From a virus: DNA of 64,000 nucleotides. Below, in pieces: positions 7,092-10,098 of the stretch. Location: IMG/VR virus record IMGVR_UViG_3300045988_077276, positions 1-64,000 of that record; one strand, given 5' to 3'. Positions within the stretch are counted from its first letter, which is position 1, and each line of letters starts with the position of its first letter. Position numbers and translations under genes: made by a program. The notes beneath the pieces are model-generated. The model was given only the letters and a program-made list of their open reading frames with translations. It made no database searches and was not told the origin of the DNA.

Positions 7092-8024
7092 ATGAAATAC
7101 AGAAACGGCAACGCTAGTGTGTGGCTTGATTTACAAGACGGCACACGCATTATTGAATACCCAGATAACGAACCATTGACACTTGATACGCCACTCAATA
7201 TTGATATTCGTGTATCTACACAATGTCCATACGGTTATAATTCTATTACTAAGAAGTCTACTTGTGCATTTTGTCACGAGTCTGCATTGGTTGATGGTCA
7301 AGAATGTCATTATGGCGTTCTGCAAAAAGTGCTGATGGACGCAAAATTACCACGTGGGACAGAAATCGCCCTTGGGGTGAATCAGATAACAGACAATCTC
7401 TTACAGTTCGTCAAGAATTTATGGAAACTTGGATTGGTTGTCAATATTACAATGAACGAGCGGTATATCTTGCAATATGGCGACACACGGCTTAAAGAGA
7501 TGATGCCATATGTATATGGTCTTGGTATCTCTTATCGTTCACTATATGGATGTTTATCGCTACCAGATTGGATTGCAGAATATCCACATACGGTTATCCA
7601 TGTGATTAATGGCATTGATGATTTTGACGATGTAAAAGAACTGGGTGTAAAATACCGTAAGTTATTAATCTTGGGCGAAAAAGACTTCGGTTTTAACCGT
7701 GGAAAGGTTGATTTAAACACTCCACAACATAAACAATGGAAGTCGAATGTAATGCAATTGACGGAAATCTTTGACATTGTATCCTTTGATAACTTGGGGT
7801 TGCAGCAATTAGAAATCCGTGGTAAGATAACAGATGAAGAATACAAATCGTTTTACCAAGGCGAACATTCCATGTATGTCAATGCGGTGGAACAATACTT
7901 TGCACCATCAAGCCGTACACGGAATAACATTAAACGTTTTGATGAAACCGATTTACGTTCGTATTTTCATTTTTGTGAATCACAGGAGGTGTCGCATGAT
8001 ACTAAAGAGAACAGGCGTGTTTGA
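7092..8024 (+). CDS. hypothetical enzyme with a CX12CX2C cysteine motif (possible atypical radical-SAM-like protein)
   Basis: STQCPYGYNSITKKSTCAFCHES near the N-terminus. GGAG SD. No canonical CX3CX2C. Confidence 0.6.
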   Translation: MKYRNGNASVWLDLQDGTRIIEYPDNEPLTLDTPLNIDIRVSTQCPYGYNSITKKSTCAFCHESALVDGQECHYGVLQKVLMDAKLPRGTEIALGVNQITDNLLQFVKNLWKLGLVVNITMNERYILQYGDTRLKEMMPYVYGLGISYRSLYGCLSLPDWIAEYPHTVIHVINGIDDFDDVKELGVKYRKLLILGEKDFGFNRGKVDLNTPQHKQWKSNVMQLTEIFDIVSFDNLGLQQLEIRGKITDEEYKSFYQGEHSMYVNAVEQYFAPSSRTRNNIKRFDETDLRSYFHFCESQEVSHDTKENRRV

Positions 8025-8490
8025 AACCAACAGTTCTTCTTGTCACTCAATGGCAATCGTTGGACGATTACAAAAGAAAACGCCAAAGGATGCAACCATT
8101 ACAGACATATACGGAGAACTTGGGTATACTCCAATGTTTGATAATGTTGTATGGACTGTAAAGTTTGAAGACTACCTGTGGAAAGAACAACAGTTATGCA
8201 ATTCCCAAGAAAAACTGTGGTTTTTGTTGTCTTACATCTATAGTGAATATAACTTTGACTCCATATTTGTCGATGAGTTTTACAAAAAAGTAAAGCGTTG
8301 GTTGTCTGACATTGGTATCACACTAAAAGAACCAGACTATAGTGAATACGAAGATTATGTCGATGAAGTTTTGTCACAATCTATTTTCAAACAGGAAATG
8401 TTTCAAACACCAAAAGACTTGTATGAATATTTGTTTGATGATGATTTAATTATTGATATTCGTTCTGTCGAGGTAAACGCAGAGTACTAG
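7996..8490 (+). CDS. GVFETNSSSxHS-family protein, paralog 1
   Basis: ATG 7996 follows AGGAGG. The N-terminus is MILKRTGVFETNSSSCHSMA, and the C-terminal block is MFQTPKDLYEYLFDDDLII. Confidence 0.7.
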   Translation: MILKRTGVFETNSSSCHSMAIVGRLQKKTPKDATITDIYGELGYTPMFDNVVWTVKFEDYLWKEQQLCNSQEKLWFLLSYIYSEYNFDSIFVDEFYKKVKRWLSDIGITLKEPDYSEYEDYVDEVLSQSIFKQEMFQTPKDLYEYLFDDDLIIDIRSVEVNAEY

Positions 8491-8502
8491 GGAGGAACAC
8501 TA

Positions 8503-8799
8503 ATGGATTCACAAAACCAACATTCCTTAGAATGTCTATTAGAATCCCCAGTTGGTATTCGTTGTGATACTGATATGATGCCGTCATGTTTAGACCGAGT
8601 TAAACATATTGTGTTATACTTTGATAGTCTTTATGCTAAGGTTCAAGATATATATATGTGTTCTAATGGTCGTTACTATATGCTAGAGTGTTACGAAGAA
8701 TACAATAATAAGAAAAGACATCTTATTCGTTTTATTGAAGTAGAACATAAGATTAAAATTATAGATTATTGGGTTGACGTAAAGGGGGCAAACAAATGA
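8503..8799 (+). CDS. hypothetical protein
   Basis: Track ORF with a GGGAGGA SD. Confidence 0.6.
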   Translation: MDSQNQHSLECLLESPVGIRCDTDMMPSCLDRVKHIVLYFDSLYAKVQDIYMCSNGRYYMLECYEEYNNKKRHLIRFIEVEHKIKIIDYWVDVKGANK

Positions 8800-9584
8800 A
8801 ATTAATACGCAACGGAGTCTTTGAAACAAACTCCAGTTCTGCACACTCTTTGGCATACAAAAACACAGTATTGCGTGATTACAGATGTCAAACAAAGGGT
8901 ATTCCATATTTTTCTGACAAACGATTTTATTTAACGAAAAAGCCACATGATTATCGCCTATACAGTTTTATGCCATTATACTTTGATGAATACGGTTGGG
9001 AGTTCAACGTATTGTCTACTCCAGCATCTAAACTTAGTTATTTAATGTCGTCCGTTTACCAGTATAAAACTTGGGGTGTTGTAAAAGAAGACCCATTTTT
9101 TAAACAAGTGATACAATGGTTAGATGAACTTGGTGTCCGTGTTGATTTACCAGAAGAATACGGTGACTCTAGTGAAGTCGATGCATATGTTGACCACCAA
9201 TCTTGGGGAGTAGTTGATAAATCTATGTTCCAAACTAGGGAAGATTTGTTGACATACCTGTTTAATGACGACATCGTAATTCATACGGAAAATGATAATT
9301 CCGACAATATGCAAAATTGGGTTGATGCACCAGACCATACAATCAATTATCAACAAGCGATGTACTGGTGTAGTTCCAAAGATAAATGCGTAAGACGTAA
9401 ATCTTGGGAAGATGGTCTATATCTAATTTACGGTCTTGTCGAAGATAAAGATGGTCAATATATCAATGTCGATTATCTATTGGTAGATGGCAATGGTAAA
9501 GTTTTATATGAACCATCCACCGCAGACAGAAATGCAAATGATTGGGAAGTTGCTATGGGGGTAAACAGATATGAAATTAATTAG
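8796..9584 (+). CDS. GVFETNSSSxHS-family protein, paralog 2, fused to a C-terminal DUF2829 (Tad2-like) domain
   Basis: MKLIRNGVFETNSSSAHSLA...YVDHQSWGVV...LLTYLFNDDIVIHTENDNS, followed by INYQQAMYWCSSKDKCVRRKSWEDG...STADRNANDWEV. Confidence 0.75.
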   Translation: MKLIRNGVFETNSSSAHSLAYKNTVLRDYRCQTKGIPYFSDKRFYLTKKPHDYRLYSFMPLYFDEYGWEFNVLSTPASKLSYLMSSVYQYKTWGVVKEDPFFKQVIQWLDELGVRVDLPEEYGDSSEVDAYVDHQSWGVVDKSMFQTREDLLTYLFNDDIVIHTENDNSDNMQNWVDAPDHTINYQQAMYWCSSKDKCVRRKSWEDGLYLIYGLVEDKDGQYINVDYLLVDGNGKVLYEPSTADRNANDWEVAMGVNRYEIN

Positions 9585-10098
9585 AAATGGTGTGTTTGAA
9601 ACCAATAGTTCATCCGCACATTCTCTTGCGTATGGTACAGAATATATCTTGCGTGGCAGTCGTTGGTATCAACCAACCGAGGAACACGACTTTAGTAATC
9701 CAATGTATCGTCTTGACAAGGTACCAGATAATTACCGTGGTTATACATTCTGTGAATGGCTTGGTGAGTTCGGTTGGAATGGCAGACCATTGCGTACACC
9801 ACAAGAAAAATTTTCTTATTTGTTGACACAAATGGCAGATACATCGGAAGAACTGCATGAATCAACCGAATATGAAACCATAAAAGAAATGGTTGAAGAT
9901 ATTGGTTGTGAAATCATCCGTTGTAATAACCAAGATGGATACGTTGACCACGAAAGTTACGGTATAGTCAAACCATCGTTATTTAAGTCTAAAAAAGACT
10001 TGATTACGTATCTGTTTAATGATAACATCATAGTATACATTGAAAACGACAATAGCGAATACCAAGAATGGTATACTGGAGAAAAATCAAAATGGTAA
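9571..10098 (+). CDS. GVFETNSSSxHS-family protein, paralog 3
   Basis: MKLIRNGVFETNSSSAHSLA...GYVDHESYGIV...LITYLFNDNIIVYIENDNS. Confidence 0.75.
   Translation: MKLIRNGVFETNSSSAHSLAYGTEYILRGSRWYQPTEEHDFSNPMYRLDKVPDNYRGYTFCEWLGEFGWNGRPLRTPQEKFSYLLTQMADTSEELHESTEYETIKEMVEDIGCEIIRCNNQDGYVDHESYGIVKPSLFKSKKDLITYLFNDNIIVYIENDNSEYQEWYTGEKSKW

What the first reader, a model, noticed from the sequence alone, without database searches (positions are those of the whole stretch)
7996..10098. Tandem three-member paralog family with an invariant N-terminal GVFETNSSSxHS motif
ORFs 7996..8490, 8796..9584 and 9571..10098 all begin M(I/K)L(K/I)R(T/N)GVFETNSSS(C/A)HS(M/L)A. Their C-terminal blocks also match: YVDH(Q/E)S.G.V in two of the three, and LF......DL..YLF(D/N)D..I.I in all three. 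An invariant Ser/His-rich N-terminus suggests a catalytic or metal-binding site. I do not recognise the family. Triplication inside a phage early region, with one copy fused to a Tad2-like domain, suggests a diversified counter-defence or nucleotide-signal-processing function.
Basis: partly seen in the sequence, partly recalled or inferred. Interest (0 to 1): 0.65.

Follow-up and report, generated by a model that had tools for sequence, protein, structure and literature searches.

The report
Phage radical-SAM enzyme with tagged partner proteins
The three similar genes are real, but what they share is a 20-residue N-terminal tag that, across thousands of uncultivated phages, marks otherwise unrelated small acidic proteins encoded next to a dedicated radical SAM enzyme, a two-part module that I found described nowhere.

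Summary
Three real genes (7996-8490, 8796-9584, 9571-10098) begin M-x-L-x-R-x-GVFETNSSSxHS, and the middle one ends in a Pfam Tad2-like domain.

The ORF just upstream (7092-8024) is a radical SAM (rSAM) enzyme, with a CX12CX2C motif here and a canonical CxxxCxxC in homologs.
- Of 100 loci fetched through the tag alone, 87 carry this rSAM on the same strand, mostly 0-30 bp away.
- Of 80 viral loci fetched through the rSAM alone, 77 carry the tag. Of 79 genome loci, 67 do.
- All 331 tag genes lie on the rSAM strand.

Loci hold 1-6 tagged genes. The tag ([IV]R-x-x-[VT]FETNSSS-x-H, 8-9 residues from Met1) is invariant, but the bodies fall into unrelated classes. hhalign gives 0.6% probability without the tag and 99.4% over 29 columns with it. 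AlphaFold2 models the window-type body confidently but not the tag. No Pfam, NCBIfam, PDB, Foldseek or literature match exists.

Salmonella phage Arash fuses a class-A body to the rSAM. Neighbours are enriched for RNA-repair genes.

Best reading (confidence about 0.5): the rSAM recognises and modifies the tag on a diversified set of acidic phage proteins, probably counter-defence effectors. The chemistry is unknown.

The parts
7092..8024 (+). Radical SAM enzyme (310 aa), the conserved partner of the tagged genes. The cluster motif is C45-x12-C58-x2-C61, an insertion variant of CxxxCxxC. The GGE-like SAM motif is degenerate in this copy (LGVNQ instead of GGGNP).
   Evidence: PHROG 16999 'Fe-S oxidoreductase', E 2.5e-21. 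Homologs have a canonical CxxxCxxCHE and GGGNPL. 30 of 38 homologs hit Pfam PF04055, best E 3.4e-11. A profile search hits solved rSAM enzymes: 7tol 1.7e-5, SuiB 3.7e-4, SkfB, QueE, viperin, PqqE. It is adjacent to tag genes in 87/100, 77/80 and 67/79 loci.
7996..8490 (+). Tagged paralog 1 (164 aa). It has a class-A body that has lost H of the DH motif (YVDE) and the NDN motif. It overlaps the rSAM stop by 29 nt.
   Evidence: Falls in body cluster 0. The ortholog in L023 is 58% identical and also lacks DH and NDN.
7996..8055 (+). N-terminal tag of paralog 1 (MILKRTGVFETNSSSCHSMA).
8503..8799 (+). Small Cys-rich ORF (98 aa), untagged, lying between paralogs 1 and 2. It is conserved only in close relatives. 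Whether it belongs to the module is uncertain.
   Evidence: 62% identical in L023, where it is fused in frame to paralog 2. No family match.
8796..9584 (+). Tagged paralog 2 (262 aa): tag, then class-A body with DH and NDN, then a C-terminal Tad2-like domain.
8796..8855 (+). N-terminal tag of paralog 2 (MKLIRNGVFETNSSSAHSLA).
9345..9551 (+). Tad2-like (DUF2829) domain, aa 184-252 of paralog 2.
   Evidence: Pfam PF11195, E 1.5e-7, 32.3 bits against a cut-off of 25. No phmmer hit to solved Tad2 structures.
9571..10098 (+). Tagged paralog 3 (175 aa), a canonical class-A protein: tag, a linker modelled with low or intermediate confidence, and a folded body (aa 45-160) with W69, K80, Y83, D126-H127 and N159-D160-N161.
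9571..9630 (+). N-terminal tag of paralog 3 (MKLIRNGVFETNSSSAHSLA).
   Evidence: pLDDT is below 50 for residues 1-23 although these are the most conserved positions.

Best explanation
The three genes are clients of the radical SAM enzyme encoded immediately upstream (7092-8024). Together they form one copy of a widespread phage module that I found described nowhere: one rSAM gene plus one to six co-oriented genes.

The products of those genes share only an invariant N-terminal tag of about 20-29 residues. It consists of a basic beta-strand, the turn E-T-N-S-S-S-x-H, and a second strand. A variable linker follows, then diverse acidic bodies.

The most likely mechanism is that the rSAM binds the tag and uses a 5'-deoxyadenosyl radical to modify a residue in the invariant T-N-S-S-S-x-H stretch. 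Candidates are oxidation of a Ser, epimerisation, or a cross-link involving His or Phe. This would mature the N-terminus of each client.

Class A, the type of all three window genes, is the core client. It carries its own conserved polar residues (W, K, Y, DH, NDN). Other bodies are accessory. Biologically the module most likely equips a diversified panel of phage counter-defence or host-takeover proteins. In the window one of them carries a Tad2-like nucleotide-signal-binding domain.

Shown: the tag, its invariance, its transfer between unrelated bodies, the near-obligate linkage to the rSAM, the rSAM identity, and one natural fusion. Inferred: that the rSAM acts on the tag, the chemistry, and the counter-defence role.
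For: Linkage:
- tblastn and HMM searches find the rSAM beside tag genes in 87 of 100 loci fetched by tag only, with gaps mostly 0-30 bp.
- The reciprocal test finds tags in 77/80 viral and 67/79 genomic loci fetched by an rSAM motif only.
- All 331 of 331 tag genes are on the rSAM strand, with no opposite-strand tag among the rSAM-fetched loci.
- The linkage holds across 59 rSAM clusters at 60% identity, with rSAM identity down to about 27% while the tag stays invariant.

The tag is an independent module:
- hhalign of class A against class B bodies gives probability 0.6% without the tag and 99.4% over only 29 columns with it.
- There are 19 body clusters among 313 unique tagged proteins.
- Paralogs lacking DH and NDN keep the tag intact.
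- The tag is always 5-11 residues from Met1.
- In AlphaFold2 models the tag has pLDDT below 50 while body residues 45-160 are mostly above 85-90, both with 16 and with 143 sequences.

Gene order resembles precursor-then-maturase clusters. Tags lie upstream of the rSAM in 45 of 55 clusters, with 1-6 tags per rSAM.

The partner is a genuine rSAM.

Physical coupling is supported by Salmonella phage Arash gp146c, a class-A-plus-rSAM fusion protein.

Counter-defence flavour: median pI is 4.4-4.6. ORF2 has a Tad2-like domain. Neighbours are enriched for PNK-HD or Pnkp-Rnl1 (11/59), RlaP (6/59), Thg1-like (4/59) and NADAR (4/59) genes. The module is nearly absent from cellular genomes, with 92 hits in 185,579 species, mostly gut MAG contigs.
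Against: - No modification has been observed. Everything about the chemistry is inference.
- The rSAM has only the three cluster cysteines. It has no SPASM or twitch auxiliary cluster, and no RRE-type (RiPP leader-recognition) domain turned up in the Pfam scans, unlike most peptide-modifying rSAMs.
- No protease or exporter is conserved nearby.
- The clients are folded proteins of 90-480 aa, not peptides.
- A fusion of class A to the rSAM, and class A being present in 51 of 55 clusters, fit an enzyme-subunit relationship at least as well as an enzyme-substrate one.
- About 8-10% of tag loci show no rSAM within 6 kb.
- The window's own rSAM copy has an insertion in the Cys motif and a degenerate GGE motif.
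- The RNA-repair and NADAR neighbours could reflect shared genomic neighbourhoods rather than shared function.
Confidence: 0.5

Rival explanations
1. Adaptor or subunit model. The tag is a docking peptide, or it completes the rSAM active site. The tagged proteins would be interchangeable specificity or regulatory subunits that bring a third-party substrate, such as RNA ends, a nucleotide or an immune signal bound by the Tad2-like domain, to one shared rSAM catalytic subunit. The tag itself is not modified.
For: - A class A-rSAM fusion exists in phage Arash, with the tag E changed to A, which suggests E serves binding that is dispensable in cis.
- Class A is present in 51 of 55 clusters and is the only client in 21.
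- Class A has its own conserved polar residues.
- RNA-repair enzymes are recurrent neighbours.
- The rSAM has an invariant N-terminal hairpin (Y-x-N-G...G-T; the K is conserved in most homologs but is R in the window copy) that could pair with the tag hairpin.
Against: - Docking peptides normally co-vary with their partner. They do not stay invariant in polar residues (E, T, N, S, S, S, H) while the partner diverges to 27% identity.
- I know of no precedent for swappable rSAM specificity subunits.
- The acidic bodies (pI about 4.4) are unlikely to bind RNA.
- Only one fusion was found among 50,697 phage records.
Confidence: 0.25
2. The three proteins are autonomous enzymes whose Ser/His-rich N-terminus, together with DH and NDN, forms a metal-binding or catalytic site, for example a HAD-, Rec- or Toprim-like phosphoesterase acting on nucleotide immune signals or RNA ends. 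The rSAM would be merely a pathway neighbour.
For: - In class A, E10 would sit at the end of strand 1, DH at the end of a strand, and NDN at the end of the last strand. That geometry is typical of acidic metal sites in alpha/beta phosphoesterases (the comparison rests on my general knowledge of those folds).
- Fusion to a Tad2-like domain.
- RNA-repair neighbours.
Against: - The tag is equally invariant on bodies that lack DH and NDN, and on class B bodies with no homology to class A.
- ORF1 itself has lost H127 and NDN but keeps the tag.
- AlphaFold2 does not place the tag in the sheet even with 143 sequences.
- Foldseek finds no HAD, Rec or Toprim match. The best PDB E-value is 1.9.
- Pfam and NCBIfam give no match to such families.
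- The near-obligate rSAM linkage is left unexplained.
Confidence: 0.12
3. Addressing-tag model. The N-terminal peptide targets diverse cargo proteins to a common destination, such as the capsid for injection (like the T4 capsid-targeting sequence on internal proteins) or a compartment. The rSAM would be unrelated to that function.
For: An invariant N-terminal peptide on polymorphic tandem genes resembles the T4 internal-protein loci (from my own knowledge). The proteins are acidic and small.
Against: - The module lies in replication or nucleotide-metabolism regions, not head modules.
- Its conserved partner is an rSAM, not a protease or capsid protein.
- The tag stays invariant across phages of cyanobacteria, Firmicutes, Bacteroidota, CPR bacteria and archaea, with unrelated virion types.
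Confidence: 0.03

Closest known systems
RiPP-type radical SAM maturases with multiple leader-bearing precursors (e.g. SuiB/streptide, SkfB, PqqE/PqqA)
   Same: One rSAM gene lies next to one to several co-oriented genes, usually upstream. Those genes share a conserved N-terminal sequence and differ elsewhere. The rSAM profile gives weak matches to SuiB, SkfB and PqqE.
   Different: The clients are folded proteins of 90-480 aa. The conserved element is polar and invariant, so it resembles a core or cofactor motif more than a leader. The rSAM has no SPASM or twitch cluster, and no RRE-type (RiPP leader-recognition) domain, protease or exporter turned up.
Protein-modifying rSAM enzymes with several clients: glycyl-radical activases (PflA acting on PflB, TdcE and the spare-part protein GrcA) and anaerobic sulfatase-maturating enzyme
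   Same: A single small rSAM serves several protein clients. In the PflB/GrcA case the clients share only the short segment that is acted on. Some database sources call homologs 'organic radical activating enzyme'.
   Different: The tag has no invariant Gly and no RVxG motif. It has no (C/S)xPxR motif. The rSAM has no auxiliary clusters. The motif sits at the extreme N-terminus, not internally or at the C-terminus.
Tad2 (DUF2829) anti-Thoeris sponge
   Same: ORF2 aa 184-252 passes the Pfam PF11195 gathering score. Tad2 proteins sequester gcADPR and some cyclic nucleotides (bioRxiv 10.1101/2023.05.01.538930 and 10.1101/2023.11.15.567273).
   Different: Here it is a C-terminal appendage on a 180-aa tagged class A protein. 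There is no direct sequence match to solved Tad2 structures. The fusion is confined to this phage clade. Ligand binding was not tested.
T4 internal-protein loci with a capsid-targeting sequence
   Same: Tandem, polymorphic genes share only a short N-terminal peptide (from my own knowledge).
   Different: The genomic location and the partner differ: an rSAM in a replication module, not a prohead protease in a head module.

Membership tests
Radical SAM superfamily (ORF 7092-8024) | Three-Cys [4Fe-4S] motif CxxxCxxC | tested here: met
   Homologs have a canonical CxxxCxxCHE. The window copy has C45-x12-C58-x2-C61, and all three Cys are invariant in 38 sequences.
Radical SAM superfamily (ORF 7092-8024) | Match to the Pfam PF04055 core and to solved rSAM enzymes | tested here: met
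   30 of 38 family members hit PF04055, best E 3.4e-11. The window copy itself does not reach E 0.1. The family profile hits 7tol at 1.7e-5, 5v1q at 3.7e-4, and also 6efn, QueE, viperin and PqqE.
Radical SAM superfamily (ORF 7092-8024) | GGE-like SAM-binding motif | tested here: inconclusive
   The family consensus is GGGNPL. The window clade has LGVNQ.
Tad2 / DUF2829 (ORF2 C-terminus) | Pfam PF11195 above the gathering score | tested here: met
   32.3 bits against a cut-off of 25, E 1.5e-7, aa 184-252.
Tad2 / DUF2829 (ORF2 C-terminus) | Binding of gcADPR or cyclic nucleotides, and a tetrameric sponge architecture | not testable with these tools
   No sequence match to solved Tad2 chains.
RiPP precursor / rSAM maturase system | Precursor genes adjacent to the maturase, with a shared recognition sequence and a variable remainder | tested here: met
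RiPP precursor / rSAM maturase system | Short peptides, an RRE (leader-recognition) domain, SPASM or twitch auxiliary clusters, and a leader protease or exporter | tested here: not met
   The clients are 90-480 aa. Only three Cys are conserved in the rSAM. No conserved protease or transporter neighbour was found.
Glycyl-radical enzyme / activase pair | Invariant Gly in an RVxG[FWY]-type radical loop on the client | tested here: not met
   The tag has no invariant Gly. The Gly of GY[IV]DH is absent from ORF1 and ORF2.
Sulfatase / anSME pair | (C/S)xPxR motif on the client and auxiliary Fe-S clusters on the maturase | tested here: not met
   The tag is ETNSSSxH. The rSAM has three conserved Cys only.
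HAD / receiver / Toprim-like acidic phosphoesterases (class A body) | DxDxT, DD or E...DxD catalytic motifs and a Rossmann-like fold detectable by sequence or structure | tested here: not met
   No Pfam or NCBIfam hit. No PDB sequence hit. The best Foldseek PDB E-value is 1.9. Caveat: the N-terminal strand is unplaced in the model.
cRec domain (Iyer et al. 2021, PMC7824862) | A divergent receiver fold with catalytic Asp residues, linked to NAD/ADPr-processing and RNA ligase genes | not tested
That paper does not mention a radical SAM partner.

The most novel reading that the evidence does not exclude
A previously unrecognised class of viral post-translational modification system. A dedicated, minimal radical SAM enzyme installs a new modification on an invariant N-terminal ETNSSSxH tag. 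The modification could be an aldehyde, a cross-link or a protein-derived cofactor. The tag has been grafted onto many unrelated acidic effector proteins, giving phages a modular way to arm counter-defence proteins. Those include Tad2-like signal sponges and proteins encoded next to RNA-repair genes. The system is present from 65-kb gut phages to Lak megaphages and Microcystis phages.
Probability: 0.35. Interest if true: 0.9.

Novelty: new variant of a known kind. Interest (0 to 1): 0.75.

Why it matters
If the rSAM modifies the tag, this would be new radical SAM protein chemistry and a new organising principle for phage accessory proteins: one maturase serving many tagged clients.

The module is abundant. 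The tag family has at least 2,210 clusters at 50% identity, and the rSAM has at least 3,109 clusters at 90% identity. It occurs in human gut and oral phages, Lak megaphages and bloom-controlling Microcystis phages. It is nearly absent from cultured model phages, which would explain why I found no description of it.

The tag gives a simple sequence handle for cataloguing hundreds of unannotated phage proteins that probably act in host takeover or counter-defence.

Two culturable systems make it testable: Microcystis phage Ma-LMM01 (gp128 and gp130) and Salmonella phage Arash (the gp146c fusion).

Tried and rejected
Family and structure searches on the three proteins that found nothing useful:
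- Pfam, NCBIfam and PADLOC gave no family apart from Tad2-like. PHROGs gave only weak matches to families of unknown function (28997, 1048).
- phmmer and profile searches against PDB sequences gave no match.
- Foldseek of the AlphaFold2 model against PDB had a best E-value of 1.9. Against BFVD it found only a member of the same family.
- megablast against 50,697 phage records gave no match.

Considered and rejected on motif grounds:
- Glycyl-radical motif, sulfatase (C/S)xPxR motif, 2H HxT/S pairs, metallophosphoesterase motifs, pyruvoyl or Ntn self-processing, and HAD DxDxT.
- The match of E-T-N-S-S to the bacterial N-glycosylation sequon D/E-x-N-x-S/T was noted as probably coincidental and was not tested.

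Search for a third conserved component: none was found. The best neighbour family occurs in 11 of 59 clusters.

Search for more class A-rSAM fusions: there are no Arash relatives in IMG/VR, and Arash is the only case among cultured phages. Apparent long rSAM ORFs in L077 and L082 are probably upstream ORF extensions, not fusions.

Literature:
- Searches for ETNSSS, phage rSAM with an N-terminal motif, and rSAM with RNA repair returned nothing relevant.
- The Tad2 papers do not describe such fusions.
- The Ma-LMM01 transcriptome paper does not mention gp128-130.
- Burroughs and Aravind 2016 could not be read.

Loci without an rSAM within 6 kb were re-searched with relaxed thresholds and stayed negative, except for an unrelated small rSAM in L017.

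
Full report
OBSERVATION

ORF1 is the ATG at 7996 inside a longer mechanical ORF. ORF2 is 8796-9584 and ORF3 is 9571-10098. Each start follows a Shine-Dalgarno-like sequence.

The N-termini are MILKRTGVFETNSSSCHSMA, MKLIRNGVFETNSSSAHSLA and MKLIRNGVFETNSSSAHSLA. Overall identity is 32-44%. The Ser codons in the tag differ between copies, so selection acts on the protein.

ORF2 and ORF3 share YVDH(Q/E)S and a terminal ENDN. ORF1 has YVDE and has lost the NDN.

ORF2 aa 184-252 passes the Pfam Tad2-like (PF11195) threshold. 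It has no direct match to solved Tad2 chains.

The window is a tailed phage, with a large terminase, a portal and a tape measure. The genes lie in its replication module, among a Gp2.5-like SSB, a primase, a DnaB-like helicase and DNA methyltransferases, about 3.4 kb upstream of four tRNA genes.

THE FAMILY IS LARGE AND UNANNOTATED

Pfam, NCBIfam, PADLOC and PDB sequence searches recognise nothing apart from the Tad2-like domain. There is only a weak match to PHROG 28997, whose function is unknown.

An exhaustive profile search of 1.84 billion representatives finds 2,210 clusters at 50% identity with E <= 1e-3, and 409 with E <= 1e-10.

Across 143 sequences, R5, E10, N12, S13, S14 and S15 are invariant. 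F9, T11, H17, G68, W69, K80, Y83, D126, H127, F149 and N159-D160-N161 are nearly invariant.

THE MISSED PARTNER

The ORF just upstream (7092-8024, 310 aa) overlaps ORF1 by 29 nt and matches PHROG 16999 'Fe-S oxidoreductase'.

A tblastn search of this ORF against loci that had been fetched only through the ETNSSS family found a homolog next to the tagged gene in almost every locus.

Aligned homologs show a canonical CxxxCxxCHE, a GGE-like GGGNPL motif and further conserved blocks. The window copy has an insertion, C45-x12-C58-x2-C61. Thirty of 38 homologs hit Pfam Radical_SAM. The family profile hits solved rSAM enzymes: Tes 7tol, SuiB, SkfB, QueE, viperin and PqqE. The ORF is therefore a radical SAM enzyme. 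Its family has at least 3,109 clusters at 90% identity, all with only generic names.

STRENGTH OF THE LINKAGE

- Of 100 loci fetched by the tag alone (genomes, metagenomes and IMG/VR), 87 carry the rSAM on the same strand, usually 0-30 bp away.
- Several of the remaining loci are cut by contig ends. About eight or nine have no rSAM within 6 kb.
- Reciprocally, 77 of 80 IMG/VR loci fetched by an rSAM motif carry at least one tag.
- 67 of 79 loci from species genomes fetched the same way carry at least one tag.
- No opposite-strand tag was found among the rSAM-fetched loci, and all 331 tag genes in rSAM loci are co-oriented.
- The association spans 59 rSAM clusters at 60% identity.
- No third gene is conserved.

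THE TAG IS THE SHARED ELEMENT, NOT THE WHOLE PROTEIN

Loci carry one to six tagged genes: 24 clusters have one and 31 have two to six. The tagged genes lie upstream of the rSAM in 45 of 55 clusters. The window's downstream arrangement is the minority, seen in 7.

Over 313 unique tagged proteins, the logo is [MK][KR]x[IV]R-x-x-[VT]-F-E-T-N-S-S-S-x-H-[SA]-[LI]. The Phe sits 8-9 residues from Met1 in 288 of them.

The bodies fall into 19 clusters:
- Class A: 225 proteins with GEYGW...KLSYL...GY[IV]DH...NDN. All three window proteins belong here.
- Class B: 58 proteins of 91-136 aa, ending TTPSGExVVAFGxYGY.
- Smaller groups make up the rest.

hhalign of class A against class B bodies gives probability 0.6% without the tag. 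With the tag it gives 99.4%, over only the 29 tag columns.

Many paralogs lack DH and NDN, including ORF1 and its orthologs. They keep the tag unchanged.

AlphaFold2 models ORF3 residues 45-160 at pLDDT mostly above 85-90. Residues 1-23 stay below 50, both with 16 and with 143 sequences. The modelled body has no structural neighbour in PDB or BFVD beyond its own family.

Class A is present in 51 of 55 rSAM clusters and is alone in 21. Class A plus the rSAM is therefore the core, and the other tagged proteins are accessory.

FURTHER CLUES

- Salmonella phage Arash gp146c, annotated 'methyltransferase', is a natural fusion. It has a class A domain with tag variant FATNSSSSHS, GYIDHES and GGNDN, followed by the rSAM domain (CDLACKFC, GGGEPM). 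It is the only such fusion among 50,697 phage records.
- One rSAM (L003) carries an intein with a LAGLIDADG endonuclease. GIY-YIG and HNH homing endonucleases are frequent neighbours.
- The most frequent functional neighbours are RNA-repair genes. A PNK-type kinase fused to an HD domain, or to a metallophosphatase and T4 Rnl1-type ligase, occurs in 11 of 59 clusters. RlaP occurs in 6, Thg1-like in 4 and NADAR in 4. Any of PNK, RlaP or Thg1 occurs in 17 of 59, often directly adjacent.
- The tagged proteins are acidic, with median pI 4.4-4.6.
- Carriers among deposited phage genomes are the Microcystis Ma-LMM01 group (gp130 and gp128), Prevotella Lak megaphages and Arash.
- In cellular genomes the rSAM is rare: 92 hits in 185,579 species, mostly gut MAG contigs.

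INTERPRETATION

Shown:
- A two-component module consisting of an rSAM plus N-terminally tagged proteins.
- The tag is a transferable element under much stronger constraint than anything else in these proteins or in the rSAM.

Inferred, as the simplest mechanism: the rSAM recognises the tag and performs radical chemistry on it. This is analogous to rSAM maturases with several adjacent precursors, or to activases with several protein clients. I put this at about 0.5.

The main rival, at about 0.25, is that the tag docks interchangeable subunits onto the rSAM, which then acts on another substrate. The Arash fusion and the near-universal presence of class A fit this as well. The invariance of polar tag residues against a fast-diverging partner argues for a chemical role rather than a docking role.

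This is weakened by the tag's presence on unrelated and degenerate bodies, and by the failure of AlphaFold2 to pack it on the body. I put it at about 0.12.

A counter-defence or RNA-repair-linked role is suggested only by association: the Tad2-like fusion, the NADAR, RNA-repair and methyltransferase neighbours, acidity, diversification and restriction to phages. It remains unproven.

COMPARISON WITH KNOWN SYSTEMS

The rSAM meets the superfamily criteria. The module does not meet the defining features of these systems:
- RiPP systems. The clients are not short peptides, and there are no SPASM clusters, detectable leader-recognition (RRE) domain, protease or exporter.
- Glycyl-radical systems. 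There is no radical Gly.
- Sulfatase maturation. There is no (C/S)xPxR motif and no auxiliary clusters.
- T4 capsid-targeting loci. The partner and the genomic location are wrong.

The searchable literature returned nothing on this motif or module. I therefore rate it a new variant of a known kind, namely an rSAM with tagged protein clients. There is a substantial chance that the chemistry and biology are new.

Noticed in passing
L182 (Salmonella phage Arash OQ632216.1) 2491-3921: gp146c, annotated 'methyltransferase', is a fusion of a class-A tagged domain (tag variant FATNSSSSHS) with the rSAM domain. An annotated RNA ligase lies three genes downstream. This is a culturable system for experiments.
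   Followed up: partly
L003 3629-5704: The rSAM homolog in a Paludibacter MAG contig is 691 aa because it carries an intein with a LAGLIDADG homing endonuclease (Pfam PF14528 and PF14890). GIY-YIG and HNH homing endonucleases are also frequent neighbours of the module (10 and 7 of 59 clusters).
   Followed up: partly
proteins P0031 and P0076; loci L034, L038, L044, L051: Some close relatives of the window phage carry chimeric paralogs, with an ORF2-like or ORF1-like N-terminal half joined to an ORF3-like C-terminal half. Others carry a single tagged gene where the window has three. This suggests recombination between the tandem copies.
   Followed up: no
L023 / L040 4938-6020: In these relatives the homolog of the window's 98-aa ORF (8503-8799) is fused in frame to paralog 2, giving a 360-aa ORF. 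The tag is then internal (…QTKLIRNGVFETNSSS…) rather than N-terminal. This could be a real fusion, an internal start or an assembly error.
   Followed up: no
window 7092-8024: The window's rSAM clade has a 9-residue insertion inside the cluster motif (CX12CX2C instead of CX3CX2C) and a degenerate GGE motif (LGVNQ). As a result Pfam does not recognise this copy, although it recognises 30 of 38 homologs.
   Followed up: yes
window 6071-6796, 10068-10988, 22493-23275: There are three DNA methyltransferase genes in one 64-kb phage window. Two of them flank the rSAM/tag module. The C5-methylase start (10068) overlaps the end of ORF3 (10098) by 31 nt. A database protein (P0079, 220 aa) joins an ORF3-like segment to a PF00145 domain.
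   Followed up: no
window 13509-13851: A tight cluster of four tRNA genes (Met-CAT, Ser-GCT, Asn-GTT, Ser-TGA) lies 3.4 kb downstream of the module.
   Followed up: no
window 34000-40000: A low-GC stretch (0.28-0.31 against about 0.38 elsewhere) with few long ORFs and no PHROG match for the one ORF tested (38858-39451). It may be a foreign or hypervariable insert.
   Followed up: no
L021 / L022 6571-8835 (and L045, L048, L049, L101-L103): In phage contigs of about 64-204 kb that carry the closest distinct version of the module, it is followed directly by a 754-aa protein combining AAA_33 kinase, metallophosphatase and T4 Rnl1-type RNA ligase domains. That is an all-in-one RNA repair enzyme.
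   Followed up: partly
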